From positions 1 through 58,220 of IMG/VR virus record IMGVR_UViG_3300043486_000004: a stretch of DNA of 58,220 bases; one strand, written 5' to 3'. Both the position numbers and the translations under genes were made by a program. Shown piece by piece: positions 35,021-49,366 of the stretch. The number at the start of each line of letters is the position of its first letter. Within the stretch, counting starts at the first letter, position 1. The DNA is from a virus. Taxonomy: Duplodnaviria > Caudoviricetes. Under the pieces are notes generated by a model that saw only the letters and a list, made by a program, of their open reading frames with translations, did no database searches and was not told where the DNA came from.

Positions 35021-35673
35021 TAGAGGCGACTCCAGCCGGTGATCTTGGTGCGCTCCGGGCAGATGTCCAGGATCTGATAGAAGCGACAGACAGCGTACGC
35101 CTGGGTATAGCAGTCATCGACGGCGCTGTGCGCGATCAATTCATGTTGTTCTAGAGGCCAGTTGCGTTCCTTCAACTCCTCAGAGAACTTGGCTTTCAAC
35201 TTCTTCAGGTCGGGGCCCTTGTCCGCCACCATCTGCGAGATCGTTCGGAAGCACCGACTAGCGCGGAAGTCGAAGGGGCTCTTCAGATCGTGGCGTGCGC
35301 AAGCCTCATCGATCAGGCGCTCATCGAATAGCGGTCCGTTCGACCATACACTGGTGATCGGCTCGCCGTGAATCTGGCACCAGTCCTGTAGTCGGCGCAG
35401 TGCTGAGCCAAGGGTAACGTACTTGTCCTTTGGTTGCCCAAACAATGCAACACGGGCCTGTTCGGTTTGTGACATCCACCACTTGACGGTAGAGGGCTCA
35501 ATGTTGCCAGGTGAGGCGCTGCCCTCAAGGTCGATCAGGACGTGAAAAGCCCTGGTGTCGCGGGGCTCCATGATCTTCAGCTTCAGCGGATCAAACCGCA
35601 GCGCGCCGATGGAACAAATTGCGGCGTTCGGTCCTGTACCGAGCGTCTCGAGGTCAAGCATCATATGGGACAT
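35020..35673 (-). CDS. DEDD 3'-5' exonuclease
   Basis: MLDLETLG, WSNGPLFD, RCFRT, HSAVDDCYTQ. Confidence 0.88.
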   Translation of the reverse strand: MSHMMLDLETLGTGPNAAICSIGALRFDPLKLKIMEPRDTRAFHVLIDLEGSASPGNIEPSTVKWWMSQTEQARVALFGQPKDKYVTLGSALRRLQDWCQIHGEPITSVWSNGPLFDERLIDEACARHDLKSPFDFRASRCFRTISQMVADKGPDLKKLKAKFSEELKERNWPLEQHELIAHSAVDDCYTQAYAVCRFYQILDICPERTKITGWSRL

Positions 35674-35681
35674 TGTTTGTG

Positions 35682-35906
35682 TTAGCTCAGGGGAATGACA
35701 GGAGGATCACCAGGGTTGACCTCTAAAAGAAGGTCTTGACCACATAATATACGCATGCGGCTGGCGTTGTACTTGGGAATCTTGCGGCAGGCCTGAAGCG
35801 CTGCGCGAGCTGCGCTGAGCGTGGGACGCGGCTTGCCGAGAGGAAACCATCCAATGATCTCGCCGAGTTGCAGCTCGACTTCGATTGTGTAGCCGGGACG
35901 GATCAT
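35682..35906 (-). CDS. Hypothetical protein
   Basis: 74-aa ORF filling the gap in the operon. Confidence 0.55.
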   Translation of the reverse strand: MIRPGYTIEVELQLGEIIGWFPLGKPRPTLSAARAALQACRKIPKYNASRMRILCGQDLLLEVNPGDPPVIPLS

Positions 35907-35924
35907 TGGATGGTTTTTGTTTGC

Positions 35925-36443
35925 CTAGCAGTCGCAGCAGTTTTCGACGCAAGCCTCGCAATTTTCTCTAGCTGCCTTCTCCTCCAAGTCTGTGGAGGTT
36001 GCGAAGGCCCCATTCATCAACGAGCGGAAGTCGTCGTAGTTGGCGACGGTTTCGTTGTACGTTGCCCAGCAGTCGGCGATTTGATCCGCAGTGGTGCAGC
36101 CGACAAGGCAGCGTTCGCGCTTGGCCGCTGCGCTGACCATCATGCCGTCAACCGTGGTGTTGAAGCTCTCGCACTCGGCGCACTCATCTGCGTTGATCTG
36201 CACCAGCTTCGCTTGGTACGTGGCCCAGCACGAAAACAAACAATTCATATTGACTGAGCAGCCTGGCTGGTTCGTGCATGACGGCCACGGAAGGGCAACC
36301 GTTGTCACGTCGAAATTGCAGTAGCGGTTGCATTCGGTGTGGGAGAATGAGGCCAACGCAGGGGCGGCCACGCTACGCGGAGTGAAGCTCAGCAAGCTGC
36401 CCAGGAACAGCGCGGCCAACACTAAAACAATAAGCTTTCTCAT
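35925..36443 (-). CDS. Secreted cysteine-rich protein
   Basis: Signal peptide MRKLIVLVLAALFLGSLL; numerous Cys; ends CEACVENCCDC. Confidence 0.75.
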   Translation of the reverse strand: MRKLIVLVLAALFLGSLLSFTPRSVAAPALASFSHTECNRYCNFDVTTVALPWPSCTNQPGCSVNMNCLFSCWATYQAKLVQINADECAECESFNTTVDGMMVSAAAKRERCLVGCTTADQIADCWATYNETVANYDDFRSLMNGAFATSTDLEEKAARENCEACVENCCDC

Positions 36444-36548
36444 CGGGGTTTTGGTAATTGTTGAGGGGTCTTCGGGTTGCAATTTAGATGTTCGGAATGT
36501 GTCGGCCGTCGCCATCAATTCTCACATGATTGTTTACAGTGTCCAAGA

Positions 36549-36701
36549 TCATTTGAGCATCCCGTAGTGCTCAGAACAACTTGCAATTATGTAGACTCCA
36601 TTGTCGCTGTTATAGATACATTGAACAATGATGCAGAGCTTGGTGCATTGGAAATCACACGTCTCTCGCTGTTGGACTATCGTTGCAGTGTCGCCTATCA
36701 C
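36549..36701 (-). CDS. Small Cys-containing hypothetical protein
   Basis: GTGA overlap with the polymerase stop; 50 aa. Confidence 0.35.
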   Translation of the reverse strand: MIGDTATIVQQRETCDFQCTKLCIIVQCIYNSDNGVYIIASCSEHYGMLK

Positions 36702-38914
36702 GCGCTCAGCCTCCACGGAATCAATAGGCCCTTCTTGTCGAACGTCGGCTTGGACTTCTTCGACCACACTTCAGTCAAGTGCGCCTCGTCACAACGGAAG
36801 TCGATATCTGGCAGGACCAACTTCATTGTTTCACAAATGATCTCGCTCACGCGCATGCACTGTGCATGCCACAGCTTCTTGTCCCGAGTCGTCTCGCCAA
36901 TGATTTGATCGTGGACGAAGGCGATCGGACGACACCCAAACAATACGCTGCCCAACGTGTGGTCGTAGCACTCGCGAACAACGCGAATGACCGATAGCTT
37001 CATGCCCTCGGCACCAGGGGATTGCATGGCCTTGCCGTTGGCGAGCGAGCAGAACGTAGCGCCGCGTCGCACCATCCCCAGCGGTGTGGTGTACTCGTAA
37101 AGCGTCTCTGAGCCCGAGTTGTACTCATCAACCTGAGCTTCGACCCACTTGAAGTAAGGCGGCATCTCGGGGTAGGTCTTGCGCCAGACCTCACGGCCTT
37201 CGTACGCCTCCTCCTCGGTCATTACCACGCCGTACGTGGTGCGCGCGAACTCGACCATTGTTGCCGGCCCAAGGCCGCCAGGGAACCCCAGGCCTGTTGG
37301 CTTGGCGAAGTCGCGCCAGTGCTTGTAGAAAGCAACAACCTCTTCGCTCTTGTGCTTCTTGCAATCGCTGAAGGCCTGGTAGAGGTCCATCGGATCGCTC
37401 AGGAGCCCCTCGGTGCGGCAGCCTTGAATGAATTCCTTGCCGATGCCGTCATTGCAAAACTGGTACACCAGGCTCGAGCCCAGGTAGGCGTGAAGGTCCA
37501 CCTTGGCGTTGTAGCGTGTCAAGTGAACAGACGTCCCAAACAAATCGTAGGTAGTCTGACCGACGCAGGCAAGCTCGAGGCCCGATCCGTCCACGTCAAA
37601 GAACACTGTACCAGGGCGAGGCATATAGGCTGCGCGCGGATCGATGCCCTCGATTTCCTTCGGCACGTTCTGGCCGTTGGTGCTCGGATACAAAGCCGTC
37701 TTGCCTTTGCGTGATCCGTAGCTGGACGTGCGGCCGGTTTCCACCAGCTCGTTGTAGTTGAAGTGGATCACGTCGCCGGACTCGAGCACGGGGATCTGAC
37801 CCGTGGATAGCTTGCTCAAGTGCTGGCGATTCGCGTACTCCGCGAACACAGAATCGTGCAGCGCCAGCATGTCGATGACTTCGCCGTCCAGCTTGATCTT
37901 GGGCTCGCGCACGCCGCCCGCAGTCATGTCGGGCAGTTTGCCCAGCTTCTTGAACACCTTGGCCGCATGCTCTTGCAGTGGCTTCTGATTGATCTTGGCG
38001 GGCTTCGGCTTGCAAAGATAGATCTTGTCGCGGGACAGCTTCTCAGCGAATTGTTCCCACTGAATCGCAAGGGGCTGCGATCGATCCTTGGCTTTGATGA
38101 GATCCAGAGCGCGCTTGAGCTGCGTCTTCTTCGGCACTGCCGGCCGGCTGGGCTGAAGGATGCCAGCCTTGGTGAGGCCCTTCTCATTTGCCTGAAGGAT
38201 CTTGTACACCCGCGTACGCATGTCACGTACAGCGGCTTTGTTTACCTTCATGCCCCAGGCAGTCATAAAGCGCAGGGCAACGCTGCTGTAGAGCTGGAAC
38301 TCCGCAGTAGCCACGCTCAGGTGTGGATCTTGGGCCAAGACCTCATCCTGAGCGAGGTAAACCAGCAGAGTATCAACGGCATCTTCCTTGGCGTACTCGG
38401 CCGCGTCCTCTGGATAGTCAACGGCCTTGATGCCGTCCAAAGTGTCGAAGTTGAGTCGCCAGCCGTCCTGTTCTGCCTTCTCTTCGGTGCGGTCCTTGCC
38501 CAGGTATTGTTTGCCGAAGTCCGCAAGTGAGTAACCAATGTGAACGTCACGGCCATCAGGCGTGCGGTAGTTCTCGAGGTTTCCCGTGCGCGACAGGTTG
38601 AGGAGCTTCTCACGCACGATCGTGTCGGTGCAAGCACCTGACTCGAGCGCATCAAACACCACGGGGATCAGATCAGGGTAGCTCGCCATGACCACCAGGT
38701 AGTCGTAGCCGCCAGCGTGCGTGATCTTCTTCAGAGACTCATCCTTGAGTGCTTTGTAGAGGCGCTCTTCGACACCATCGTCTGGGTGATTCCCAAACAA
38801 ATAGCTGTACGGGCTGCCGGCTTCGTCAAGGTGCGCGAAGGACGCGCATACCATCTTGGGTGCCAGGCACTTCGGCCCGATGCGAAATGTTTCTGTGTCG
38901 AATGCTAGTTCCAT
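36698..38914 (-). CDS. DNA polymerase family A with 3'-5' exonuclease
   Basis: AFDTET, YAKEDA, ETGRTSS, motif A DGSGLEL, motif B RDFAK, motif C VHDQ. Confidence 0.93.
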   Translation of the reverse strand: MELAFDTETFRIGPKCLAPKMVCASFAHLDEAGSPYSYLFGNHPDDGVEERLYKALKDESLKKITHAGGYDYLVVMASYPDLIPVVFDALESGACTDTIVREKLLNLSRTGNLENYRTPDGRDVHIGYSLADFGKQYLGKDRTEEKAEQDGWRLNFDTLDGIKAVDYPEDAAEYAKEDAVDTLLVYLAQDEVLAQDPHLSVATAEFQLYSSVALRFMTAWGMKVNKAAVRDMRTRVYKILQANEKGLTKAGILQPSRPAVPKKTQLKRALDLIKAKDRSQPLAIQWEQFAEKLSRDKIYLCKPKPAKINQKPLQEHAAKVFKKLGKLPDMTAGGVREPKIKLDGEVIDMLALHDSVFAEYANRQHLSKLSTGQIPVLESGDVIHFNYNELVETGRTSSYGSRKGKTALYPSTNGQNVPKEIEGIDPRAAYMPRPGTVFFDVDGSGLELACVGQTTYDLFGTSVHLTRYNAKVDLHAYLGSSLVYQFCNDGIGKEFIQGCRTEGLLSDPMDLYQAFSDCKKHKSEEVVAFYKHWRDFAKPTGLGFPGGLGPATMVEFARTTYGVVMTEEEAYEGREVWRKTYPEMPPYFKWVEAQVDEYNSGSETLYEYTTPLGMVRRGATFCSLANGKAMQSPGAEGMKLSVIRVVRECYDHTLGSVLFGCRPIAFVHDQIIGETTRDKKLWHAQCMRVSEIICETMKLVLPDIDFRCDEAHLTEVWSKKSKPTFDKKGLLIPWRLSA

Positions 38915-39001
38915 ATTGTTTGAAAGGCGGCCGACAGATGCTTTTTCAAGCGATACGGCCGACCGCCGATGCAGCTACTTAGCGTCGAAACGCCGGTCTG
39001 C

Positions 39002-39511
39002 CTACTTCAGGCCCTTGGGAAAGATCCTCTTGAAATCGGCCGGCTCCATGGACGACTTCACATCTTCGGCCGAAACCTGCGGGGACCAAGAGTAGGTCGT
39101 GTATAGGTACGGATTGCCTTCGTCATCGGTCGCGCTCTTCGAGGGGCGCTGGCGTGCCGTCACCACGGTGCAGAGGCCCAGCAGTGGGCTCTCTTCGGAG
39201 CAGGCTTCCTTGGTGTAGTCCTCGTCAATATCTTCGTCGCTGCACTCCATGATCGTGCCGATGAAACTCTTGACGTTTTGTTGGAAGATCTTCTTGCCCG
39301 GCTTGGTCTTGAAGAAGGTGTTGACGACCTCACCAACTTTGTGCTCGCCTTCATCGACCGCAAGGATGGTGAGCGTGTTCTTCCACATCTCGCCGTTCTT
39401 GTCCGTGTCGAAAAACGCGCACTCATCAATCCGCACCAGGTAGCGGCCGGGGAGGAGGGGATTGGAGTTGAAGCCACGCTTCGCGTCCTTCATGCCTGAG
39501 AAAGCGCCCAT
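39002..39511 (-). CDS. Putative single-stranded DNA-binding protein
   Basis: LLPGRYLVRI N-terminal motif; acidic; between helicase and polymerase. Confidence 0.6.
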   Translation of the reverse strand: MGAFSGMKDAKRGFNSNPLLPGRYLVRIDECAFFDTDKNGEMWKNTLTILAVDEGEHKVGEVVNTFFKTKPGKKIFQQNVKSFIGTIMECSDEDIDEDYTKEACSEESPLLGLCTVVTARQRPSKSATDDEGNPYLYTTYSWSPQVSAEDVKSSMEPADFKRIFPKGLK

Positions 39512-39569
39512 GAGTAGTGTCCTTGTGTTTTGTTGCTTGGATAGTGAATGCCGGTTGCCCAGCGAGGGA

Positions 39570-39598
39570 AGTGTATCAGATCGCAGTCAGACGAGCAA
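39570..39598 (-). promoter_or_regulatory. Sigma70-like promoter for the SSB/PolA genes
   Basis: TTGCTC-N17-TACACT. Confidence 0.55.
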
Positions 39599-39683
39599 AG
39601 TACCTAGCTATTGTTTTACTCGTCTTCCTTCGCCGTGATCGTTGCGAGTTTGATCCTGCCTTTCTGGCTGACAAGCGAGACAT
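39576..39683 (-). CDS. Possible 35-aa basic peptide
   Basis: MSRLSARKAGSNSQRSRRRKTSKTIARYFARLTAI*. Confidence 0.25.
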   Translation of the reverse strand: MSRLSARKAGSNSQRSRRRKTSKTIARYFARLTAI

Positions 39684-39773
39684 CTGGAGTACCGTACTCG
39701 CAGAAGGATGTAAACACATGAATTTTCATGGTAGGCGGGAGAGCCTCGAGCTTCGAAATAAGTTCTGATACTT

Positions 39774-41807
39774 TCATTGTTCCAGTGGCCCAAATTTTTC
39801 CTCGAGGGCCTGTCGAGCTTCCTTGTCCAGCATCGCCACATCCACAAAGCCCCGCTCACGCAAGAAGTCGTCGGGGTAGATCTTCGGCAGCGGGTTGTAC
39901 GAAGCATACAGCAGCTTGTACCGCGCGCCAGTTGTTTGCTGCATATAAAGCGTGTCGATCAGGCACGCGGCCATGTTCAAGCTGTCGAACAGAATCGTGT
40001 TCATCGTGTGAACAATCAACTCGTCCGCCTTCTGCCCGTTGCGGTGCATGCGGCCGATTGTCTGTTCCATCTTCAGGGCTTCCCTAGGAAATTGCAGAAA
40101 CAATTGATCCTGAAACGCTTGCAGGTTCTTGCCCTGGCCATGGCCCCCGATGGAGCACACCAAGATCTTGTCGCTGTTCTCGCCGCCTTCGCCGGCCGTG
40201 CCTACGATCTGATTTGTTCCCTTGCGGATGCTATCACTCGGACACCAGATCGCATCGATACCAGACTCGATCAGCTCGGCCGTCATCCAACGGCCCAGAT
40301 CGTCGTGGTGAAACCAAATGATCCCGCCGCTCTTGCGCTCTTGCGCCCACTGGATCGCGTGCCTGATCTTGTAGTCGCAGATCCGCACGGGCTCTGATAA
40401 GCGCTTGGGCATGTCGTCGAATTCTAGATCCTTCGCGGTGCGCCAGATTGCAAACAAATCCTCGCCGACGTTTGTTGCACCGTGGGCTGCCATGTCCGCG
40501 CCGACCAGGAAGGGGGTATCCAAGCGTGGCCTTGACCGTCTTTCTAGCCACTTGCGCAGCGCACGGTGATACTCCTGGAGCGCCTCGTGGTGATCCTGTG
40601 CGCCGTCCAAGTAGGCCTCGGCTTCAGCGACAGTCAGCTTGGCGCGTGCGATCAATTCTGCCGGCGTGGGCCAGCGTTGGTGGTAATAGAATCCAGCAGT
40701 CAACTCAAACAAATAGCGCCACTTGTGAAAACCGTAGTCGATCTCATCGCCAGAAGGAGTCAGCCACAGCTCTTCGACTTGCTTGATTAGCTCGGACAGT
40801 TTCTCGAAGCCCTCCGCATTCTTGTGGTCGGGCACGGGAAGATTCTCGATCACCAGGCTGACACCTAGTTGCGCGTCACCAGTGGAAACCACCCCGGGCG
40901 CAGAATTGAGCCGAAGCTTGTACGCCTTACGGAAACCTGGGACTCCTCCAGGAAGCTTTTGTTTAGGAAAGTGCTTCCTGGCCCATGCAACAATAGGACG
41001 GATTGGCCCGACTTGAGCATCGCTAGGATCTGCTTCCGCATCAAGGACGTACGACCAATTGACCGCGAGGGCAGGGTCCATCGGTAAGGGACAATTTTCT
41101 CTGAGGGCATAGGAGATCAGGTGGTGGTAGTCTTTGATCGACTTGGAAGTGATTGTTCCAGAGAGTGCCACGACGCGCGGCTGCGCCTGCATCAAGTAGC
41201 GCAGCAACCTTTTTGTTCGCGCAGCCGTGGGGTTTTTGACCGAGTGTGCTTCGTCAAGAATGCAGAGGTCTGGGCTGATCTTCGTCAAGACCTCTTCCGC
41301 GTCCTGAGTTGAGAGCTGAGAATACGTGGTGATATAGCATCCAGCTTTGCCACTGCGCGCAATCGCGAGTCGCTCTGCCTTGGGCCTGCCGCCCAGGAGG
41401 ATGAACGGCACCTTGATCGATACGCGTCGTCGCGCCCAGGGGATATCGGTGCGCGTGAGCTGCAAATAAACCTGGGGCGGGACCCACAGCATGGAGCGCT
41501 TGCTGGTTTTGTTTACAAAGGCCCGGTTCGCGATCATCAAGGCGATCAGGGTTTTACCCCAGCCAACACCGATGGGGGCGAAAAGTCCTTCGTACAAGTC
41601 CCAAGCGAGGACGGCCCCGACCTGTGTTGCGAACAGGCGGAAGCCGTCCTCGTAATGTCGAGCATCCACTTCCTCTTTGCAGAATGCCTCGATCTCTTCA
41701 GAGGTCGGATGCTCGACAATCGGCAGCTCGGTGATACGGTCGATCTCGAGCGAGGCTGCGGTGTCCCTACGGACCCCGCGAACCTTTGCGTACGGATCGA
41801 CCCGCAT
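39774..41807 (-). CDS. SF2 (SNF2-like) helicase
   Basis: GVGWGKT, ILDEAH, LSGT, GKNLQ, EQTIGRMHRNGQ. Confidence 0.9.
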   Translation of the reverse strand: MRVDPYAKVRGVRRDTAASLEIDRITELPIVEHPTSEEIEAFCKEEVDARHYEDGFRLFATQVGAVLAWDLYEGLFAPIGVGWGKTLIALMIANRAFVNKTSKRSMLWVPPQVYLQLTRTDIPWARRRVSIKVPFILLGGRPKAERLAIARSGKAGCYITTYSQLSTQDAEEVLTKISPDLCILDEAHSVKNPTAARTKRLLRYLMQAQPRVVALSGTITSKSIKDYHHLISYALRENCPLPMDPALAVNWSYVLDAEADPSDAQVGPIRPIVAWARKHFPKQKLPGGVPGFRKAYKLRLNSAPGVVSTGDAQLGVSLVIENLPVPDHKNAEGFEKLSELIKQVEELWLTPSGDEIDYGFHKWRYLFELTAGFYYHQRWPTPAELIARAKLTVAEAEAYLDGAQDHHEALQEYHRALRKWLERRSRPRLDTPFLVGADMAAHGATNVGEDLFAIWRTAKDLEFDDMPKRLSEPVRICDYKIRHAIQWAQERKSGGIIWFHHDDLGRWMTAELIESGIDAIWCPSDSIRKGTNQIVGTAGEGGENSDKILVCSIGGHGQGKNLQAFQDQLFLQFPREALKMEQTIGRMHRNGQKADELIVHTMNTILFDSLNMAACLIDTLYMQQTTGARYKLLYASYNPLPKIYPDDFLRERGFVDVAMLDKEARQALEEKFGPLEQ

Positions 41808-41810
41808 GAC

Positions 41811-42197
41811 TCAGGCGGCCTTTTTCTTTTTGCTGCGCGGCTTGGACTTGGCTTTCGTCGGGGCTTTGTTCGTCACCGGGGCTTTCTTCGCCGTTGGCTT
41901 CACAGCCCTCGGTTTCTTGGCCTTCGTCTTCGGCTTCGATTTTCCCTTCGGCGCAGGCTTGGCTTTGGCACGCTTGCCCGTGGGACCTTGCTTCTTCGCC
42001 AGCTTTTGTTCCTTGGGATCTTCAGACTGCCGGCCGCGTGAGCGCATCTTGATCTTCTGGCGATGCAGCTCGCGCAGGATCGTGACCGGGGCCAAGCCGT
42101 AAAGCTCAGCGACCTTGTAGACGGACATCTTTTTGTTCACGTACAAATCGTGAACGTCCGCCTGGTGTTTCTTGTCGAACTCGATTCTCTGCGACAT
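41811..42197 (-). CDS. HTH DNA-binding protein with histone H1-like Lys/Ala/Pro tail
   Basis: LYVNKKMSVYKVAELYGLAPVTILRELHRQKIKMR (HTH), then KAKPAPKGKSKPKTKAKKP...KKKKAA. Confidence 0.8.
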   Translation of the reverse strand: MSQRIEFDKKHQADVHDLYVNKKMSVYKVAELYGLAPVTILRELHRQKIKMRSRGRQSEDPKEQKLAKKQGPTGKRAKAKPAPKGKSKPKTKAKKPRAVKPTAKKAPVTNKAPTKAKSKPRSKKKKAA

Positions 42198-42205
42198 GTT
42201 TGCCT

Positions 42206-42610
42206 CTAGAACTTCTTGCCGTGTTTGTGCGGCCGGGTCAGGTTGTATTCGTACTTCAGCCTTACCGCTCGGCCGATGTCGATTTTGCGATGCGCCGCGA
42301 GGTCGAACACGCGGATCATAATGTCGGCCATTTCCTCTTCCTCGAGAGTCAGGCCAATCGGCTTGCCGCTGATTTGTTTGCCGCAATCGGCTGTGGGATC
42401 TTTGCGGAAAGCCTCGAGGAGTTCACTGGCTTCTGAATGGATCAGCGCCACCTTCTCGGCCAGGTTCGGCTTGGGGTCGTCCCAGAAGCCGTGCTCAGCA
42501 GAGCAGCGATGGCAGGCATCGCGCCATGCCGACAGCGCCGCAGCTTGAGATCGCATGTACTCCTCGTACTGCGACGCCAGAGGCTGCGACGGTGAAAGCA
42601 TCGGGTCCAT
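42206..42610 (-). CDS. MazG-like nucleotide pyrophosphohydrolase
   Basis: LIHSEASELLEAFRK, EEEMADIMIR, KYEYNLTRPHKHGK. Confidence 0.88.
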   Translation of the reverse strand: MDPMLSPSQPLASQYEEYMRSQAAALSAWRDACHRCSAEHGFWDDPKPNLAEKVALIHSEASELLEAFRKDPTADCGKQISGKPIGLTLEEEEMADIMIRVFDLAAHRKIDIGRAVRLKYEYNLTRPHKHGKKF

Positions 42611-44565
42611 TAGCCGAGACGCTCCACAACAAGCTCCGCGTGCGGCGCGAGCGCGTTGAACAAGGCGACCAGATCGAAGTCGTTCGTGCCACCAGGGAAC
42701 ACCACGATGGTGCGCCCAAGACCCTCGCAGATCGCCGGCCCAGCTTGCTTCAGGCGATCCTGGCGCTTCTTCTGATCCAGCTCCATGAAGTGCTCGGCAC
42801 CCATCTCGGCCGCGAGGTCCGCGCCGTAGCGCACCATCAGCTCTTGGGCCGTCACCATGGGGCGCGTCGGCCCGCGCAGCATCGCGGTGCCCATGAAGAT
42901 CCAGGGGCCGGCACGGGGCCGCCCGTTCGCCTTGGGGCCTGCGTCGGGCTCCTCGGCATAGTTCTTTGCCGGTCCCGCTGCGGCAGCGCCCCTGCGGGCT
43001 CCCACGCGGGCCTTGGGGGCGGGCTCATCCTCGGCCTCTTCTTCCTCGGCCTCTTCTTCGTCCTCGTCAGGGGCCGCGTCTGCGGCAGCTTCCATGCCTT
43101 CCCCGTCAGCGGACCAGAACAGGGGTGCCCCCAGCTCGGTCAGGGCATCCTCGAAGTCGTCCTTCGCCGTTGCCGTCATCGGCTCGGTTGTCAGCTCGAC
43201 CTCGTACATGCTTGACATTGCCGTCTTGTTTTGCTTGGCCTTGCCGTCGCAAATCGGGCAGGGGCGACCCTTGGAGTTGAAGCCCTTGCCTTTGCAGGCG
43301 TTGCACTTCGAGTTGGCCCACGGCGGGGGAACCTCGGATGACTCCTCGGCCTCGGCTTCTTCCTCTTCCGGCTCTTCGTCCTTGGGGTTGATGGCAGGCT
43401 TGGCCTTGCCCTTTGTTGCCGCAACGGCCGTTTTCGTGGTCGTTTTGGTGTCCTTGCGACCTGCGAAGATGTTCGTTCCCATAGTCTCTTTCTTTTTGTT
43501 TGCTCGCTTCTTAGGGCGAAGGGGTAGGTTCGGTCTTTGTTTTGCGGCCCGTTGCGCGTTCAATCGTTCGACTTTGTTTCTGTATACCTCAGGTGTAGCC
43601 CTGCGTCCACAGATTTCAAGGAAGGGGCATCCCCCGAACGCGCTACAAGCTTCCGCCGTAGCCGGCCTCGGTGTGTCCTGCCATTGTTTTATACCACGGA
43701 CACGCAACATGTCCAATGTTTTTTGTTTTAGCCAGCTCCCGTGCTCGGCGATGCGCTTGGCACCGATGAGGGATTCGACCTTGCGAACCCCCTTCGGGTC
43801 CTCGAACTTGGGGAATTGATTGTGTCTGACCTTGACCGGGCCAGTGTATTGCTCCAGTTGGGAGATGGCCCAGGCGTAGGTCAGGAGCTGTTGATTGTGC
43901 GCGACATCGTTCGGGCTGGTTCCGTCGCCGGAAACATAGTGCTTCTGGACTGGCACCAGGTTGCCGTTGGCGTCCGTCTGGCCAGGTTGCTTCAGGTAGC
44001 GCTTGGAAGACTCGCCAAAGCTCTTGTGGTCGTGGATCTCGGGGATGGGGCGCTCGCTCGAGCGGGGCAGATAGAAGTCCAGGAAGCCTGTGAGGATCAC
44101 CCCCTTGGTGAGGGGCAGATTGATCTCGTGCTCGACACCCACGTCAGGGTGCCGCTCGAGGATGCCCTTCTCGATCGCGTCCTGAAACAATCGACGGATC
44201 AGGCGGGCCTCGTTCGGCGTGACTGAAGCGGACTTTTTTCCCTCTGTGATTGTTTCCCAGCCCTCAGGAAAAATCTCTACCGGGTCGTTTGGACTCTGGC
44301 CGATGAAGGGGCCATCGGTGTAGATGTCTCCGTAATCAGGCTGGTGAACAATAGCCCAAGGCGTCTCTTTCCAAGGCACACGGCCGTTGTCCGTCGCGAG
44401 TAGCCAGCGCTCGATACAGGCGTGCAGCACTGTGCCGAACGTGAAGTAAGGCTTCTCCGCAGTCGGCAGCTTGAGGGTCTTCTCAAACCACCACTTGCGG
44501 TTGCACAGATCGAACGTCTCGAATTGAGACGCTGAGCTGTGTATCGGCTTCGCCTTGGCGATCAT
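42610..44565 (-). CDS. PD-(D/E)XK (RecB/Cas4-like) exonuclease with acidic linker and Zn-finger C-terminal domain
   Basis: SASQ..CNRKW, FGTVLH, GFLD, DHKS, QLLTY, CSAFGGCPFLEIC; later CNAC..CPIC. Confidence 0.85.
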   Translation of the reverse strand: MIAKAKPIHSSASQFETFDLCNRKWWFEKTLKLPTAEKPYFTFGTVLHACIERWLLATDNGRVPWKETPWAIVHQPDYGDIYTDGPFIGQSPNDPVEIFPEGWETITEGKKSASVTPNEARLIRRLFQDAIEKGILERHPDVGVEHEINLPLTKGVILTGFLDFYLPRSSERPIPEIHDHKSFGESSKRYLKQPGQTDANGNLVPVQKHYVSGDGTSPNDVAHNQQLLTYAWAISQLEQYTGPVKVRHNQFPKFEDPKGVRKVESLIGAKRIAEHGSWLKQKTLDMLRVRGIKQWQDTPRPATAEACSAFGGCPFLEICGRRATPEVYRNKVERLNAQRAAKQRPNLPLRPKKRANKKKETMGTNIFAGRKDTKTTTKTAVAATKGKAKPAINPKDEEPEEEEAEAEESSEVPPPWANSKCNACKGKGFNSKGRPCPICDGKAKQNKTAMSSMYEVELTTEPMTATAKDDFEDALTELGAPLFWSADGEGMEAAADAAPDEDEEEAEEEEAEDEPAPKARVGARRGAAAAGPAKNYAEEPDAGPKANGRPRAGPWIFMGTAMLRGPTRPMVTAQELMVRYGADLAAEMGAEHFMELDQKKRQDRLKQAGPAICEGLGRTIVVFPGGTNDFDLVALFNALAPHAELVVERLG

Positions 44566-44569
44566 TGTT

Positions 44570-47206
44570 TCAGTCTTGTCCAGAGTGCGCCATCGCAGCC
44601 GCGATCTTGTACTTCCCGTTGGGTTGTTCGCTCAGCAACCGCTCGACCTTGCCACAGACGGTGCCGTAGCGAAGGGCCTCTTCCAAGAGGATGCCCAAGT
44701 CTATCTCGACCCAGCGCGCTCGGCCAGTGCCAAAGCTCAGTTTTTTGTTTCCGTTGGGACTTGTGATCGCAAACTGACGCAAAACCTGGCCTGTGCGAGG
44801 CAGGCTGATCTCCTCGTGGATGCCGTGCATAGGCCCCATGATGTAATCGTGGACGCCGGCAGCCGTGACGAATACTCGGCTCTTCCAAATCGTGAGGGCA
44901 TTTTTGTTTCCGTTGTTCCCTTCGATCATCTTGATGAGGGCCTTCACCACGGCTTGTGAGCTGGAGCTACGCAGGCGCATGCCGCGCACAAGCGAGGTCT
45001 CTACTTCACCCTCCACCAGGAGCCGGCCGCTGCCGTACGGGTCCGTTGTGCGGTTCTCGTACAGCCAACGGATGTGGCCAGCGAGTTTGTACTGGCTCTT
45101 GTGCTTGCCCTGGACCCAGCCTGAAGTGAAGCGATAGTTTCCGTGCGCTGTCAGGTAATCGCGCGCCTTTGGCCCAACCTCGATCGACAGCAAGCGAATC
45201 TCCACGGCCCGAATGTCATCGTCGGTGAGGTCACGGTGCCCGACGATCGAGCGGAGAATGTCTTTGTCATTCGACGTAAACAAAATACGAGGGTAGATCC
45301 TCGCCATGAACGGGTTCTGGTACATGGAGCGGATCATTACGTTTCCGCCAGAGACCATCGTTCGGAATGCTTGATCGAGCGGTAGCGCTTCGTCGCTCTT
45401 GATGTTCGGCACGCCTTCGTCGCAATTCACCACGGGTGTGTCGAGCAAGCCGGCGTTGTATTTGCCAAGGGCCGTGCCATTGTTGAACTTTTCGCCGGCA
45501 AAGCATTCGGCCAGGCCTGCCGCAAGCATCCCTTTACCTGTGCCTGGGGCTCCGAACAGATTCAGCGCGCAGATCGGCGCGTTTGTTTCCAAGGCCCAGG
45601 CCAGCCACATGATTCCAAGGTCGTACTTGTCCCCAAAGAAGATCTCGAGCCACTTCTCTACCTCTTCGTCATACTTCGGCTCAACCTTTTTGTTTAGGCT
45701 GTGGACAGGCATGTTCAAGAGCCGATGCCCAGGATCACCTTCGATGTAAGCGGTCTTGATCGTGGCTGAACAAACAATGGCCGAGATCGGCGTGGCGTGG
45801 TCGTTCAAGATCGATTGCGCGCTGCGCACAGTCCATGTCTTGCCGCGCATCTCGTGGGTCTCAATCACATTCTCCATGCCCAGCTCGCGAATCATCGGAA
45901 TGAGCATCGAATCACCCACGGGCCGGATGTTGTAGCTGCCGTCTGTCCGCATGATGTGGTGCAAGCGACCGTCGCTTGCGACCATGCGCTGGCGGAACCA
46001 GGCATCGGCCTCTTCCTCGTCGTCAGGAACATCCTCTGGCCTGTCTGCCTTGATTTGTTTGATTAGTTCTTCGCGAGTTTGCTTGCCCTTCTGGATCGCC
46101 TTCTCGGCCTCGCGATTCTCTGCCTCGATCTGGGCTGACTCGTTGGCCCACATCCGGCAGATGATGTCCCAGGCGATTTGGTGCCAGTCATTACCTTCCT
46201 CATCCTCAACCTGCATTTGCTCCAATGCGCTGAAGAGCAAGGCATAGATACCCTCAGGCGTTGCTTCAGGCTGGCGCGCTGTCATGCCGATGATCTGACC
46301 AGAGATCTTTACGATTGCATTGTTTCTGCCGTTGAACTTCTTGGAGTCCAGCTTGGCATGCCTGAAACAAATGTCGTAGGACTCGCGGCCGTCCAGGTAC
46401 TTCTTGGCTACCTTTACCCAGTCGCTATCGTAGCTCTTTTTGTTTCCTCCGACCTTGACTAGTAGAGCATCAACCTCTTCGACGCTGGGTAGCTCCCCAC
46501 TGTAGGCATCGACCTCGGCGAACACATCGCCCTCGGTCTTGTCGTTTGCCTCGATCGTCTCCGGATCAAGCGCTGGCCCGCCGTTCAAGAAAACAAATCG
46601 ATCGTCGTTTGAGTAGCGCCGGCCGGTGTCCTCGCGCACCGTGCGAGGCAGACGGAATAGTCGTGTCCAATCGTCGCAGGACTTGTCCAGCTCGATCCCT
46701 GCCGCCTTGTATTTATCGCGGATCGAACGCGCCATCGACTCAGCGGTGAGATGGTCAACCGGCGTTTCCAGCACATAAACAAATCGACTGCCGTGGAGGG
46801 TCGTGTACCAGCAAGAGGGAGGAGGGAGGTCGGCCTGAGCGAGCAAACTGGTGAACTCGCCCAGGCCTTCCTCGGTCCACTCTTGCTTAGCGTCCCCTTG
46901 CTTCGGCAAATCGTGGTCAAACACCATCATGGTGACAGCGACTTTGCCGCCCTTGCGGAGCAGCTCGGCCGTGAAACCAGAGCGTTTCGTGACTCGAGCG
47001 TACAGCGGTTCGCCGTCCTCGTCCTCGAGTCTGTAAACAATAAAGTGTGCGTCTTGGTCCCAGTCGCGCTTGAAAGCTTCCTCTAGCGGAAGGTGTTCAT
47101 CGCATAGGTATCTGCCGGCTGTATCTGGGCCGAGGTCCGAGAGCTTGTGGGCTCCAGGAGCTTTCTCTCGGTCGAAAATAATGCCGACGATCGGACCAGA
47201 TTTCAT
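44570..47206 (-). CDS. Primase(-polymerase)/helicase
   Basis: N-terminal DHD, YTTLHGSR, DWTRLFRLP (AEP-like); P-loop GAPGTGKG, CDEG, FTSN. Track start 47242. Confidence 0.85.
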   Translation of the reverse strand: MKSGPIVGIIFDREKAPGAHKLSDLGPDTAGRYLCDEHLPLEEAFKRDWDQDAHFIVYRLEDEDGEPLYARVTKRSGFTAELLRKGGKVAVTMMVFDHDLPKQGDAKQEWTEEGLGEFTSLLAQADLPPPSCWYTTLHGSRFVYVLETPVDHLTAESMARSIRDKYKAAGIELDKSCDDWTRLFRLPRTVREDTGRRYSNDDRFVFLNGGPALDPETIEANDKTEGDVFAEVDAYSGELPSVEEVDALLVKVGGNKKSYDSDWVKVAKKYLDGRESYDICFRHAKLDSKKFNGRNNAIVKISGQIIGMTARQPEATPEGIYALLFSALEQMQVEDEEGNDWHQIAWDIICRMWANESAQIEAENREAEKAIQKGKQTREELIKQIKADRPEDVPDDEEEADAWFRQRMVASDGRLHHIMRTDGSYNIRPVGDSMLIPMIRELGMENVIETHEMRGKTWTVRSAQSILNDHATPISAIVCSATIKTAYIEGDPGHRLLNMPVHSLNKKVEPKYDEEVEKWLEIFFGDKYDLGIMWLAWALETNAPICALNLFGAPGTGKGMLAAGLAECFAGEKFNNGTALGKYNAGLLDTPVVNCDEGVPNIKSDEALPLDQAFRTMVSGGNVMIRSMYQNPFMARIYPRILFTSNDKDILRSIVGHRDLTDDDIRAVEIRLLSIEVGPKARDYLTAHGNYRFTSGWVQGKHKSQYKLAGHIRWLYENRTTDPYGSGRLLVEGEVETSLVRGMRLRSSSSQAVVKALIKMIEGNNGNKNALTIWKSRVFVTAAGVHDYIMGPMHGIHEEISLPRTGQVLRQFAITSPNGNKKLSFGTGRARWVEIDLGILLEEALRYGTVCGKVERLLSEQPNGKYKIAAAMAHSGQD

Positions 47207-47327
47207 GCGTCGAAGGGGAGCAACGCGCGAAGCGCAGGACACTTCGCCCTGTCACCAGACAAGGCGGGCGCGCAGCATAGGTAGGGGAAACGGAGAAGGC
47301 GAACACAAGCGCGGAAATCCGCGCCGA

Positions 47328-47924
47328 CTACTGGGTGATCTTCGCGAATTGCTCAGGCGTAAGTTCTGCCTGTAGCCTCTTGACACCCAGGTAAGTAATG
47401 ATCGCTTCGTCGATCGTTCCGCCCCATTGTTTCCAATCGTCGTGCTTGATGCGCTCGACCAGCCACAGCCCCTCTTCGTGTTGCAAGACGATAGGGTAAT
47501 CGGCCAGGAGATCAGCCATCAATCTCATTGTTTGCCCATCAGGTACTTCCAAAGGGCGAAGTGTTGCCTTCCATCTAGATACCGGCCCCTCGGGAACGAG
47601 TAGGCAATCCTCGAGGTATCGGATGCGGGCCTTGAGCTTGACGATTTCTTCGTCTCGCGCGTCCGGACCCTGGGGCAAAATTGGGTCTTGACCAGATTCT
47701 GGAATTGTTTGCGTGCTAAGTCGGCCACTGTCTTGCTCCACAGCCTGGATAGGCGAGCACACCCCGAGGGCTTGCGGTTGTTCCGGCGTTTCCTGTTCGA
47801 TTTGTACCAACCTTGCCTCGCCTGTCTTGGGGCTATGTTGCGCGAGCAAATAGCCGGTACAGGCAGCAGCGCAGGAAATCAGCAGGACTTTGAGAGCCAG
47901 AACAAACGCGCTCGGGGTGTGCAT
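47328..47924 (-). CDS. Membrane-anchored hypothetical protein
   Basis: Hydrophobic N-terminus. Confidence 0.7.
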   Translation of the reverse strand: MHTPSAFVLALKVLLISCAAACTGYLLAQHSPKTGEARLVQIEQETPEQPQALGVCSPIQAVEQDSGRLSTQTIPESGQDPILPQGPDARDEEIVKLKARIRYLEDCLLVPEGPVSRWKATLRPLEVPDGQTMRLMADLLADYPIVLQHEEGLWLVERIKHDDWKQWGGTIDEAIITYLGVKRLQAELTPEQFAKITQ

Positions 47925-47945
47925 GGGATGCCTCTTTGTTTCAGT

Positions 47946-48410
47946 CTAGGTGTGGAACACGGCGCTTGAGCCAGGGGGAAGATCGACGCTGCCGCCGCTG
48001 GGCAGAGTGACATGGCAGTTGTTGCCGTTGTTTGCGTTGTTGACGGTAGCCGTGCTGCCGCCTGCGATGTTCACCGTGCCGCCGTCGGTGTTGATCGTCA
48101 CCGTGTTGGTGGCTCCGATGTCGGTCGTGTCGTTGGAATCAAGTCCGCTCACAGAGCCCTTGAATCCGCTCTTGGTGACGACGCTGGTTTTGCTGTCCTT
48201 GTCGCCGTACTTCGGGTTGATGCGCGCAGTGCCGCCCGAGTTGGCATCGTTGATGACGTTGACGCCATCCAAGTTCGTCCATTCCGCGCCGACCAGGATC
48301 GTCCAATTCGAGGGCAAGCTGCCGATTGCGCTGCCGCCTTCGAAGGCGGACGCAAACAATGACATGCACAGGAGCAGCGCGGTAACGAGACAGAATCGCA
48401 GAGAGTTCAT
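47946..48410 (-). CDS. Secreted G/S/T/N-rich beta protein
   Basis: Signal peptide ending ASA; repetitive beta-strand pattern. Confidence 0.7.
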   Translation of the reverse strand: MNSLRFCLVTALLLCMSLFASAFEGGSAIGSLPSNWTILVGAEWTNLDGVNVINDANSGGTARINPKYGDKDSKTSVVTKSGFKGSVSGLDSNDTTDIGATNTVTINTDGGTVNIAGGSTATVNNANNGNNCHVTLPSGGSVDLPPGSSAVFHT

Positions 48411-48664
48411 GTGGTTCCTTTGTTGCAGGTTTTGAAGGCTCTGGGACCAGAGCCGGACTGCACCAACGCTACGCCTCTCTTCGGATACCGGAGGGTGATT
48501 TCCTGAATTATTTGCGCCTCGGTCCTGCCGGCGTTAGCCCTAACTTGGGCGAATCCCTGGCAGCTCTCGGCGCAGTGCCTACAGAAGCGGTGCTGTGTGC
48601 CTGGCAGGGTCTGCATCTCCCGGTGCTCCAGAACGATGCCACAGCTATCGCAGGGGGACTTCAT
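48407..48664 (-). CDS. Small Zn-finger protein
   Basis: CDSC...CRHC; ATGA overlaps on both sides. Confidence 0.6.
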   Translation of the reverse strand: MKSPCDSCGIVLEHREMQTLPGTQHRFCRHCAESCQGFAQVRANAGRTEAQIIQEITLRYPKRGVALVQSGSGPRAFKTCNKGTT

Positions 48665-48963
48665 TGCCCCGTGAGTTCGCCCTTCATGCGTGCCTCGAGG
48701 TCTAGCGGAGCGACCTTGGCAGGTACTGGGCCTGAGAGTTCAGGCACCACGGAAGGCTTCAGCGTCAGCCCATCCGGATCGCTGCCCTTGCGCTCGGCTT
48801 GAGCGAAGGCATGTTCAATGCACTTGAACAAAGGATGCTTGATAGCTGCCTCAGGCTCGAGGTCTTGCAGGTACTTGAACACGGCAAGAGCGCGTTCGCG
48901 CGGGCCGAGATGGACTGCCGGCGAATCCGGCTGTGGATAGGTGCGATGTACTTGGAAGGTCAT
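48661..48963 (-). CDS. Hypothetical protein
   Basis: AAACA-ATG start overlapping the upstream stop. Confidence 0.6.
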   Translation of the reverse strand: MTFQVHRTYPQPDSPAVHLGPRERALAVFKYLQDLEPEAAIKHPLFKCIEHAFAQAERKGSDPDGLTLKPSVVPELSGPVPAKVAPLDLEARMKGELTGQ

Positions 48964-49205
48964 TGTTTGCCAGGCACAGAGGTGAGTGTTTCGGAGATTG
49001 TTTTCATGGGCCTTGGCGTTGTGGTTTGTCTTGGACAGTCCAGACAACGCATGAAGCCCTGGGGGATGCGCGATGTGCTCACGTTCTGGACGTGGCCGCA
49101 CGCTAGAGTCAGATTCACGAACGAACCCTTGTGCTGTCGCGGCTTGCCGTCAGGCTCTACAGAAACAACTAATCGCCACGGATGAGCACTAGGATTTCGA
49201 GGCAT
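48960..49205 (-). CDS. Small Zn-binding hypothetical protein
   Basis: LACGH...CLDC. Confidence 0.55.
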   Translation of the reverse strand: MPRNPSAHPWRLVVSVEPDGKPRQHKGSFVNLTLACGHVQNVSTSRIPQGFMRCLDCPRQTTTPRPMKTISETLTSVPGKQ

Positions 49206-49362
49206 ACGTGATAACCTTTTTGAAAGCTTCCTGGCCTTTGCGAGCGCCGCCGTAGATGGCTTCAAAAACAAAGCCGACTAGATAGCCGGCTATGATGAGA
49301 AGTCCGAAGGGGAGGGCCAGCACCAATGCAAGGATGCAGGCGAAGATTTGGACCGCTTTCAT
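49189..49362 (-). CDS. Small membrane protein
   Basis: MKAVQIFACILALVLALPFGLLIIAGYLVGFVF. Confidence 0.6.
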   Translation of the reverse strand: MKAVQIFACILALVLALPFGLLIIAGYLVGFVFEAIYGGARKGQEAFKKVITYASKS

Positions 49363-49366
49363 CGTC

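What the first reader, a model, noticed from the sequence alone, without database searches (positions are those of the whole stretch)
41811..42197. HTH plus histone-H1-like tail protein: candidate reader of the AAACAA sites
Seen: a 128-aa protein with an N-terminal helix-turn-helix and a ~65-aa K/A/P-rich tail, inside the replication module. Established: such tails condense DNA non-specifically (histone H1, chlamydial Hc1, mycobacterial HupB), while HTH domains confer sequence specificity. Inference: together with ~190 dispersed sites, this could form a sequence-directed phage chromatin that compacts or shields the genome. The link to the motif is hypothetical.
Basis: partly seen in the sequence, partly recalled or inferred. 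Interest (0 to 1): 0.7.

Follow-up and report, generated by a model that had tools for sequence, protein, structure and literature searches.

The report
Phage DNA-binding protein with basic tail
A soil phage carries a small, almost unique gene that joins one DNA-recognition module of the kind used by homing endonucleases to a long lysine-rich tail; it probably grips or organises DNA during replication, and whether it reads the phage's strikingly over-represented AAACAAW word is still untested.

Summary
Window 41811-42197 (minus strand) encodes a real 128-aa protein. It has a confident three-helix HTH (residues 9-52) and a disordered 74-aa tail (25 K, 12 A, 10 P; net +26). It lies between the MazG and SNF2-helicase genes of the replication module.

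The HTH belongs to a module that normally occurs in 2-8 tandem copies, in some cases with HNH or LAGLIDADG nuclease domains or an SF2 helicase. Here it is solo and fused to a polycation. Only one orthologue with the same build turned up (94 aa). The tail resembles histone H1 in composition only.

In four syntenic relatives MazG (or the exonuclease gene) abuts SNF2 directly, so the gene is a lineage-specific insertion.

The AAACAA enrichment is also real and very sharp (191 sites vs about 26 expected; both strands; all frames; Poisson-spaced).

The link between the two is unproven. Five related phages lack both the gene and the word, which fits the link. But 38 of 70 ORFs are equally window-specific. 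A related fragment carries a different word (TAYCAAW), and its gene content at this locus is unknown.

Best reading: an HTH-anchored polycationic DNA-binding or architectural protein. Probability that it is the AAACAAW reader: about 0.15.

The parts
41811..42197 (-). Coding sequence of the 128-aa protein (P0001), stop codon included
   Evidence: codon-position GC 0.52/0.42/0.77; one orthologue with 49-50% identity
42203..42207 (-). Shine-Dalgarno AGAGG, 5 nt before the ATG, overlapping the TAG stop of the upstream MazG-like gene
   Evidence: Read directly. No sigma-70-like promoter in 41300-42800 (0 found); terminator-like hairpins at chance level (3 found vs 2.0 +/- 1.5 in shuffles), none placed after this gene on its strand. 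The gene is therefore probably co-transcribed with its neighbours (inference).
42036..42197 (-). Residues 1-54: conserved N-terminal stretch (MSxRIEFD) plus three-helix HTH module (helices 9-21, 26-33, 37-52)
   Evidence: AF2 block pLDDT 84-93 over residues 11-50. phmmer of residues 1-62 gave 460 proteins at E<=1e-3. The DLYVNKKMS signature recurs letter for letter in module copies of P0038, L016 and L017.
42027..42044 (-). Residues 52-57 RSRGRQ, a basic linker directly after helix 3; R52, R54, G55, R56 and Q57 are invariant in the orthologue (RARGRQ)
   Evidence: Alignment A1. Similar R-x-R-G linkers join the tandem modules in P0002, P0085 and P0125. A minor-groove role is inference.
41814..42035 (-). 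Residues 55-128: disordered polycationic K/A/P-rich tail (net +26)
   Evidence: No family or PDB-sequence match. The orthologue's tail (40 aa) has the same composition: K+A+P 65%, net +16.
42206..42610 (-). Upstream neighbour: MazG-type pyrophosphatase. Together with the SNF2 gene it marks the insertion point.
   Evidence: phrog_3301, 3.3e-30. In G001 and G003 the MazG homologue abuts the SNF2 homologue.
39774..41807 (-). Downstream neighbour: SNF2/DEAD-type helicase
   Evidence: Pfam DEAD, SNF2-rel_dom and ResIII; 57-60% identical in G001, G003, G004 and G005
1..58220 (.). 191 dispersed AAACAA(W) sites: the hypothetical target, not shown to belong to this protein

Best explanation
The gene encodes a small DNA-binding protein made together with the replication enzymes.

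A single three-helix HTH module docks in the major groove and reads only a short site. This module is of the type that homing endonucleases and some helicases carry in tandem arrays. The conserved basic RSRGRQ linker and the 74-residue, +26 disordered tail add strong non-specific electrostatic grip on the backbone and grooves of neighbouring DNA.

The expected result is a monomeric, HTH-anchored polycation that coats, bridges or compacts DNA, or holds a replication or recombination factor on it. It is unlikely to be a classical dimeric operator-binding repressor.

The gene was inserted between MazG and SNF2 in this lineage only, so it is an accessory function and not part of the core replisome.

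Shown: the gene is real; it has an HTH fold and a disordered basic tail; it is homologous to the tandem module family; its architecture is solo; one orthologue keeps the same build; it is an insertion relative to syntenic relatives.

Inferred: DNA binding itself, the division of labour between HTH and tail, co-transcription with the neighbours, and the architectural role.
For: Gene reality.

Fold. Foldseek against the PDB returns only generic three-helix HTH domains (DeoR DNA-binding domain, sigma region 4, homeodomains), and no match at E<=0.001.

Homology: phmmer of residues 1-62 against 1.84 billion representatives gave 460 proteins at E<=1e-3. Of the 150 listed, 148 have 2-8 matched stretches. 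Only P0001 itself and P0093 have one. Of 10 hits scanned with Pfam, 2 carry HNH and 2 carry LAGLIDADG domains. Of 8 metagenome loci, 3 encode 320-328-aa proteins that by eye closely resemble the LAGLIDADG-bearing P0104 (not scanned with Pfam), 2 an SF2-type helicase with four C-terminal modules, and 2 a C-terminal domain I recognise by eye as Vsr/DUF559-like. PHROG 7545 'HNH endonuclease' matches residues 10-83 at 7.9e-6. The Atlas structure neighbours are GIY-YIG, HNH and LAGLIDADG endonucleases at TM 0.41-0.48, which are leads only.

Orthologue: P0093, 94 aa, 50% identity over 1-58, N-terminus MSVRIEFD, tail of the same composition.

Tail.

Insertion: in G001 and G003 MazG abuts SNF2. In G004 a MazG-like ORF abuts SNF2. 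In G005 only about 175 bp separate the exonuclease gene from SNF2. There is no P0001 or P0093 match in any of the 42 related-phage loci (L002-L010 and L019-L051) among the 50 loci searched (637 kb in all).

Operon position.
Against: No experiment and no DNA-complex model supports binding. All Pfam HTH matches of the protein itself are below the curated cut-offs (HTH_38 scores 19.2 bits against 27). With only two members, conservation of the tail rests on one comparison. Polycationic tails also bind RNA and polyphosphate. The single-sequence model has low overall confidence (pTM 0.37). A solo module derived from a selfish endonuclease gene could be a decaying remnant.
Confidence: 0.5

Rival explanations
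1. One reading: the HTH specifically reads the dispersed word AAACAAW (extended form ACNSAAACAAW). The tail then condenses or shields the phage genome, giving a sequence-directed phage chromatin or self-marking system.
For: The word is real and acts at the DNA level. There are 191 sites vs 26.3 expected. Both orientations are enriched inside genes: sense 117 vs 31.8 +/- 4.3 and antisense 47 vs 6.4 +/- 2.4 in synonymous-codon shuffles. All three frames are used. Spacing is Poisson-like (CV 0.91) with no preferred pair distance or orientation, as expected for a monomeric reader of an asymmetric site. The extended 11-bp footprint, with AC at -4/-3 in 55 of 191 sites and W at +7 in 169 of 191, is compatible in size with one HTH plus a flanking basic linker; this is inference. 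Gene and word co-occur in this phage and are both absent from 5 of 5 related records, 3 of them at least 90% complete. The gene is a lineage-specific insertion. The sites are also lineage-specific: only 1 of the 12 window sites that could be mapped (14 sites lie in the genes shared with L010) coincides with an L010 site, and that one is in the opposite orientation.
Against: The co-occurrence is a sample of one. 38 of 70 ORF calls are equally absent from all five relatives, and nearly all have unknown function. The word is extremely sharp: every single-base variant at positions 2-6 sits at 0.4-1.4 times expectation, against 7.9 times for the word itself. That is more typical of enzymes such as restriction-modification or Chi-recognising helicase-nucleases than of one HTH. 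L010, a related fragment, has the sister word TAYCAAW at the same density, which suggests a system shared by relatives with drifting specificity; the 12.6 kb seen there holds no P0001 homologue, though its replication module is not covered. Other sequence-reading candidates exist, including the primase. An AEP-type primase-polymerase of phage NrS-1 recognises 5'-TTTGGTTA-3' (PMC8718748, passages read); whether the window's primase is of that type was not tested.
Confidence: 0.15
2. An ordinary gene regulator or replication-accessory factor. It binds one or a few specific sites (a promoter or an origin), and the tail merely raises affinity. It has no genome-wide role.
For: Most small phage HTH proteins are regulators (general knowledge). 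The fold resembles the DeoR DNA-binding domain and sigma region 4. The gene sits in the early/middle replication operon.
Against: A single HTH with no predicted dimerisation element is a poor classical operator reader. A +26 tail longer than the domain itself is unusual for a site-specific regulator. No candidate operator was looked for or found.
Confidence: 0.2
3. A decaying or domesticated remnant of a free-standing homing-endonuclease gene. It landed between two conserved replication genes, lost its nuclease, and has little or no function for the phage.
For: The module family is largely attached to HNH, LAGLIDADG and similar nucleases. The position, inserted between conserved genes and absent from 4 of 4 syntenic relatives, is what free-standing endonuclease genes typically show (the general behaviour is from my own knowledge).
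Against: There is no trace of a nuclease domain. The C-terminus is a clean open frame with GC3 of 0.77. An independent orthologue at only about 50% identity keeps the same solo-module-plus-basic-tail build and the same N-terminus, which argues for selection on this architecture.
Confidence: 0.08

Closest known systems
Nuclease-associated modular HTH DNA-binding domains of homing endonucleases (NUMOD1 / HTH_38 / HTH_23 / HTH_7-like modules of HNH, LAGLIDADG and GIY-YIG enzymes)
   Same: Same about 45-50-aa three-helix module and signature (L-x2-LY-x5-S-x3-IA-x3-G-x4-T-I-x3-L-x3-I-x2-R), shown by sequence homology. One family member, P0038, passes the NUMOD1 cut-off (29.5 vs 22.8 bits).
   Different: It is solo and not tandem: 148 of the 150 listed hits have 2-8 copies. 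It has no nuclease or helicase domain. It is fused to a polycationic tail. P0001 itself does not reach any Pfam cut-off. The name NUMOD and its original description are recalled; I saw only search listings.
Bacterial proteins with histone-H1-like K/A/P tails (mycobacterial HupB, chlamydial Hc1/Hc2, Pseudomonas AlgP and PhaF, H1-type CarD of Anaeromyxobacter)
   Same: A long disordered lysine/alanine/proline-rich, strongly basic C-terminal extension joined to a folded nucleic-acid-binding domain. It probably works the same way, through non-specific DNA grip and compaction (inference).
   Different: No detectable homology to any of them. The folded domain is an endonuclease-type HTH, not an HU, winged-helix or CdnL fold. 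The protein is phage-encoded. The properties of the named proteins are recalled, not tested here.
ParB: sequence-specific HTH anchoring at parS plus a lysine-rich C-terminal domain that binds DNA non-specifically and condenses it (PMC5731820; search listing and start of abstract only)
   Different: No homology. ParB is a dimeric CTP-dependent clamp with a folded C-terminal domain. Here the protein is a probable monomer with a disordered tail, and the putative sites number 191, not a handful.
Stoperators of cluster A mycobacteriophages
   Same: A phage HTH protein proposed to read many copies of an asymmetric site dispersed over its own genome, as a monomer.
   Different: From recall, stoperators are about 13 bp, number a few dozen, are mostly intergenic, and are oriented with transcription. 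Here the word is 7-11 bp, there are 191 copies, 164 of the 191 lie inside genes in all frames, and both orientations are enriched. No homology to gp71 was tested.

Membership tests
Tandem HTH module family of homing endonucleases and helicases (HTH_38/HTH_23/NUMOD1-like) | Three-helix HTH of about 45-50 aa with the L..LY.....S...IA...G....TI...L...I..R signature | tested here: met
   phmmer of residues 1-62: 460 proteins at E<=1e-3 and 40 at E<=1e-10. The consensus of 119 hits shows the signature. DLYVNKKMS is identical in several module copies. Fold.
Tandem HTH module family of homing endonucleases and helicases (HTH_38/HTH_23/NUMOD1-like) | Modules occur in tandem arrays | tested here: not met
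   One module only. 148 of the 150 listed hits have 2-8 matched stretches; only P0001 and P0093 have one.
Tandem HTH module family of homing endonucleases and helicases (HTH_38/HTH_23/NUMOD1-like) | Attached catalytic domain (HNH, LAGLIDADG, GIY-YIG, Vsr-like nuclease or helicase) | tested here: not met
   No catalytic family in Pfam, PHROG or NCBIfam scans beyond the HTH region. The C-terminus is a low-complexity tail.
Pfam HTH_38 (PF13936) | Score at or above the gathering threshold (27 bits) | tested here: not met
   19.2 bits, E 0.00099
Linker histone H1 / chlamydial Hc1-Hc2 / HU-type HupB | Homologous folded domain (H1 winged helix, Hc1, or HU fold) | tested here: not met
   None of these families appears at E<=10 in Pfam or NCBIfam, and there is no PDB-sequence match. 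The fold is a plain three-helix HTH.
Linker histone H1 / chlamydial Hc1-Hc2 / HU-type HupB | Long disordered K/A/P-rich, strongly basic tail | tested here: met
   74 aa, K+A+P 64%, net +26, pI 11.4, block pLDDT 54-68
GcrA and HTH_58 (leads from the protein atlas) | Match to PF07750 or PF19575 | tested here: not met
   Atlas scores were 0.80-0.88, below its 0.9 bar. Neither family is listed for P0001 at E<=10. PF19575 finds nothing in the six-frame genome. P0093 scores 18.3 bits against a cut-off of 23.8.
Genome-wide site reader (stoperator-type repressor or sequence-directed chromatin) | Demonstrated preference of the protein for the dispersed site | not testable with these tools
   No protein-DNA modelling or binding assay is available. 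There is only co-occurrence in one genome and co-absence in five.

The most novel reading that the evidence does not exclude
This protein is the dedicated reader of AAACAAW. It would be a monomeric endonuclease-derived HTH that recognises about 190 copies of a word which this phage lineage wrote into its own genes after acquiring the gene. Its polycationic tail would then compact, shield or mark the phage chromosome as 'self'. The related fragment L010 carries the sister word TAYCAAW at the same density. That would mean a family of phage 'word plus reader' systems whose specificity drifts between relatives, a kind of programmable phage chromatin that has not been described.
Probability: 0.13. 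Interest if true: 0.85.

Novelty: new variant of a known kind. Interest (0 to 1): 0.45.

Why it matters
Taken alone, the protein shows a DNA-recognition module of selfish endonucleases being reused as a solo domain fused to a histone-tail-like polycation. That architecture is represented by only two sequences in the collections searched.

Its wider value depends on the word. The phage has written AAACAAW into its genome about eight times more often than expected, against codon preference, in all frames and on both strands. No reader of the word is known.

This gene is the only recognisable DNA-binding protein among the ORFs I scanned, and it is specific to the lineage that carries the word. 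If it is not, the search should move to the other 37 lineage-specific ORFs, to the primase or exonuclease, or to the unknown host.

Tried and rejected
**Searches for close homologues**
- INPHARED phages by tblastn with P0001 and with P0093: none.
- blastn of the 7.5-kb replication block: none.
- IMG/VR with P0001, P0093 and their alignment: none.
- GTDB genome contigs with the alignment: none.
- The 5.8-billion-cluster collection returned only P0001 and P0093 at near lengths, and nothing at 225-2000 aa.

**Searches for the phage's relatives**
- The primase and PolA queries found no relatives in IMG/VR.
- SNF2 found only distant relatives at about 30% identity.
- The major capsid protein found two fragments and no prophage in genome contigs, so the host remains unknown.
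- No tRNA genes.

**Steps that could not be run**
I used TerL relatives instead.

**Sequencing runs:** no RNA holder was listed. The two DNA holders are marked as the probable source of this DNA, so I did not lay reads.

**Ideas rejected**
- Longer TTG start at 42386: it overlaps the MazG gene.
- Plus-strand ORFs 41655-42041 and 41677-42102: they are antisense to well-supported genes.
- The word as a codon or dipeptide artefact: it occurs in all frames and exceeds synonymous-codon shuffles. By contrast, the top words of G001 (GAGCTG) and G005 (CAAGGA) are frame-locked.
- The word as an RNA-level signal: the antisense orientation is enriched at least as strongly.
- Dimeric or phased sites: no preferred spacing.
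- Inherited sites: 1 of the 12 mapped window sites (14 in the shared genes) coincides with an L010 site.

**Literature and earlier notes**
- Searches for 'AAACAA + phage + overrepresented' and 'histone H1-like + bacteriophage + lysine-rich + helix-turn-helix' listed nothing on such a phage protein or word. Only the top 10-12 rows of each listing were seen.
- Supplementary files were not consulted; no claim here depends on them.
- Earlier-findings look-ups by place and by sequence were empty.

**Complex prediction** was not used, because no protein-protein binding is claimed.

Full report
**What the window is.** The window is a complete IMG/VR virus record: 58,220 bp, linear, CheckV completeness 100%. 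It is a tailed phage with an HK97-type major head protein, portal, large terminase and tail genes. It is 57.5% G+C and has no tRNA genes.

**The gene is real.**
- On the minus strand, an ATG at 42197 opens a 128-codon frame that ends at 41811.
- An AGAGG ribosome-binding site lies 5 nt upstream and overlaps the stop codon of the preceding gene.
- The following gene starts 3 nt after the stop.
- G+C by codon position is 0.52/0.42/0.77, the pattern of the large genes of this phage.
- The scan of 41300-42800 found no sigma-70-like promoter, and terminator-like hairpins only at chance level (3 vs 2.0 +/- 1.5 in shuffles), none following this gene on its strand. The gene is probably read as part of the replication operon (inference).
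- The gene order is primase/D5-type helicase (DUF5906), PD-(D/E)XK exonuclease, MazG-type pyrophosphatase, this gene, SNF2/DEAD helicase, a 169-aa protein, then a large protein with a PolA-type 3'-5' exonuclease domain.

**Fold.** AlphaFold2 on the single sequence gives three helices (9-21, 26-33, 37-52), with block pLDDT of 84-93 over residues 11-50. Everything after residue 55 is unstructured except a short helix at 61-67. Foldseek against the PDB returns only generic three-helix HTH domains (DeoR DNA-binding domain, sigma-factor region 4, homeodomains), and nothing at E<=0.001. The fold class is therefore clear, but it says nothing about specificity.

**Homology of the HTH.**
- Pfam gives only sub-threshold HTH_38, UPF0175 and HTH_7 matches.
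- PHROGs gives 'HNH endonuclease' families over residues 10-83 (7.9e-6).
- An exhaustive phmmer search with residues 1-62 against 1.84 billion representative proteins found 460 proteins at E<=1e-3.
- Of the 150 listed, 148 are proteins of 117-1136 aa that match through 2-8 separate stretches. The module is therefore normally a tandem repeat.
- Of ten hits scanned with Pfam, two carry HNH and two carry LAGLIDADG domains. One passes the NUMOD1 threshold.
- Eight metagenome loci add further contexts. Three encode 320-328-aa proteins that by eye closely resemble the LAGLIDADG-bearing P0104; I did not scan them with Pfam. Two carry an SF2-type helicase with four C-terminal modules. Two carry nucleases I recognise by eye as Vsr/DUF559-like; that naming is not tested.
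- The stretch DLYVNKKMS of P0001 recurs letter for letter in several of these modules.
- The N-terminal domain is thus a bona fide member of a mobile, nuclease-associated DNA-recognition module family. It is atypical in being a single copy with no catalytic partner.

**Orthologues are very rare.** One protein, P0093 (94 aa), shares 50% identity over residues 1-58. It shares the N-terminus MSxRIEFD and the linker R-x-R-G-R-Q, and it also ends in a K/A/P-rich tail (40 aa, K+A+P 65%, net +16). Nothing else of this build appeared in the 5.8-billion-cluster collection at near or longer lengths, in IMG/VR, in INPHARED or in GTDB genomes. P0093 is known only from Logan assemblies, and its contig could not be fetched.

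**The tail.** Residues 55-128 hold 25 K, 4 R, 12 A and 10 P, with 3 hydrophobic residues, net charge +26 and pI 11.4. No Pfam, NCBIfam or PDB sequence matches it. It is 'histone-H1-like' in composition and probably in physics, but not by descent. Earlier notes of this scan record similar tails on many unrelated proteins, including an XRE-type HTH (e1-1505334) and a phage ParB/LmbU-like protein (e1-5959012). The general device is therefore not new. I did not check those notes.

**Relatives and the insertion.**
- The large terminase retrieved 19 related loci with 64-69% identity. Five belong to long records, G001-G005 (38-56 kb; three at least 90% complete).
- These share the structural genes and the replication genes with the window: SNF2 57-60%, primase 46-52%, PolA 47-50%, exonuclease about 37-42%. 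The gene order is the same.
- None has a match to P0001 (at E<=1).
- In G001 and G003 the MazG homologue abuts SNF2. In G004 a MazG-like ORF abuts SNF2. In G005 about 175 bp separate the exonuclease gene from SNF2.
- The gene is therefore an insertion peculiar to the window's lineage, or a loss in all four relatives. This is the position in which free-standing endonuclease genes are usually found (my own knowledge).

**The AAACAA word.**
- *Enrichment.* The enrichment is real: 191 vs 26.3 +/- 4.7.
- *Sharpness.* It is unusually sharp. AAACAA stands at 7.9 times expectation, while every single-base variant at positions 2-6 is at 0.4-1.4 times.
- *Extended form.* The word extends to S-AAACAA-W: W in 169 of 191 sites and S in 143 of 191. 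In 55 of 191 sites it has AC four bases upstream. ACNNAAACAAW occurs 43 times against 0.7 in Markov simulations.
- *Frame and strand.* It lies in all three frames, and 164 of the 191 sites are inside my gene calls. Both orientations exceed synonymous-codon shuffles: 117 vs 31.8 +/- 4.3 and 47 vs 6.4 +/- 2.4. The excess on the sense strand is about what the A/T skew predicts. It is therefore a double-strand DNA signal selected against codon preference.
- *Spacing.* Sites are spread like a Poisson process (mean gap 304 bp, CV 0.91), with no preferred pair spacing.
- *In the relatives.* None of the relatives shows it: ratios are 0.3-2.3 in G001-G005, and counts are 0-5 in 16 shorter loci. Their own top words are codon-locked artefacts.
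- *One exception.* L010 is a 12.6-kb fragment syntenic with window 25.3-36 kb, with capsid identity of 60%. It carries its own frame-independent word, TAYCAAW: 38 sites (one per 330 bp), TACCAA 21 vs 1.3 and TATCAA 17 vs 1.6 expected, and it also exceeds codon shuffles.
- *Inheritance.* The two words share the CAAW half and the density, but the sites are not inherited. The nine shared genes hold 14 window sites; 12 could be mapped onto L010, and only one of these lies near an L010 site, in the opposite orientation.

For:
- The gene and the word are both confined to this lineage.
- The signal is double-stranded, asymmetric and monomer-like.
- It is 7-11 bp long, about what one HTH plus a basic linker could touch (inference).
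- The protein is the only recognisable DNA-binding protein among those I scanned. However, 19 of the 20 proteins have no Pfam match at all, so this says little.

Against:
- 38 of my 70 heuristic ORF calls are just as lineage-specific.
- The all-or-nothing sharpness of the word looks more like an enzyme's recognition.
- L010 suggests a system shared among relatives with drifting specificity, and the part of L010 available holds no homologue.
- Other readers are conceivable: the primase, the exonuclease/helicase pair, a Spo11/Top6A-like protein at 34124-35020, or a host factor. For the primase, the AEP primase-polymerase of phage NrS-1 recognises 5'-TTTGGTTA-3' (PMC8718748, passages read); whether the window's primase is of that type was not tested.

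I put the link at about 0.15.

**Most likely mechanism.** The protein is a monomeric, HTH-anchored polycation made with the replication enzymes. The HTH gives a short-site preference. The RSRGRQ linker and the +26 tail give non-specific grip, bridging or compaction. DNA binding and the division of labour are inferred from fold, homology and composition. They are not shown.

**Novelty and score.** The solo endonuclease-type module fused to an H1-like tail is a new variant of known kinds (HTH proteins; H1-like tails), with two known members. The protein by itself is of moderate interest. The word phenomenon, and a possible family of such words in related phages, is the more surprising item and deserves its own follow-up.

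Noticed in passing
window 1-58220 (191 sites): AAACAA is an extremely sharp word. It stands at 7.9 times expectation, while all single-base variants at positions 2-6 are at 0.4-1.4 times. The extended form is ACNS-AAACAA-W. It occurs in all frames, both orientations are enriched, and spacing is Poisson-like at about one site per 304 bp. Its reader and function are unknown.
   Followed up: partly
L010:1-12578: This related phage fragment (capsid 60% identical) has its own dispersed, frame-independent word, TAYCAAW (possibly also TCTCAA). There are 38 sites, about one per 330 bp. It shares the CAAW half and the density with the window's word, but the sites are not positionally conserved. This suggests a family of lineage-specific words.
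   Followed up: partly
window 34124-35020 (-): A 298-aa protein matches phrog_6247 'DNA topoisomerase' at 1.4e-105 but has no Pfam, NCBIfam or PDB-sequence match. By eye it has an LRQLYYQF stretch and a GDHDPSG Toprim-like motif. These recall Spo11/topoisomerase-VI-A-like 'Mini-A' proteins of mobile elements; that is recall, not tested. It is absent from G001-G005 and from the syntenic part of L010.
   Followed up: partly
window 41811-42197 versus G001:12650-12850, G003:9650-9850, G004:37400-37950, G005:14600-15000: The P0001 gene is an insertion between MazG (or the exonuclease gene) and SNF2. It is absent from four of four syntenic relatives.
   Followed up: yes
window, genome-wide: The palindrome CTCGAG is over-represented: 140 vs 47.8 by the dinucleotide model, and 69 vs 21.0 inside genes by synonymous-codon shuffles. 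GCCGGC and CGGCCG are also high by the dinucleotide model. This is unusual, because phages tend to avoid 6-bp palindromes.
   Followed up: no
L012:2291-4210 and L013:8726-10543: An SF2-type helicase of about 640 aa ends in four tandem copies of the same HTH module. The module is therefore also used to target helicases, not only nucleases.
   Followed up: no
window 42610-44565 (-): The PD-(D/E)XK exonuclease (651 aa) carries long internal low-complexity stretches, both lysine-rich and strongly acidic, and cysteine pairs (CNACKGKG...CPIC) after the nuclease domain.
   Followed up: no
window 47328-57187 (-): Nearly the whole right arm is absent from all five related records: 19 of the 20 ORF calls in this stretch have no tblastn hit. 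None of the ten I scanned matched a Pfam family. This arm is less G+C-rich (0.54-0.55 in the last 4 kb) and has the highest AAACAA density, 14 sites per 2 kb.
   Followed up: no
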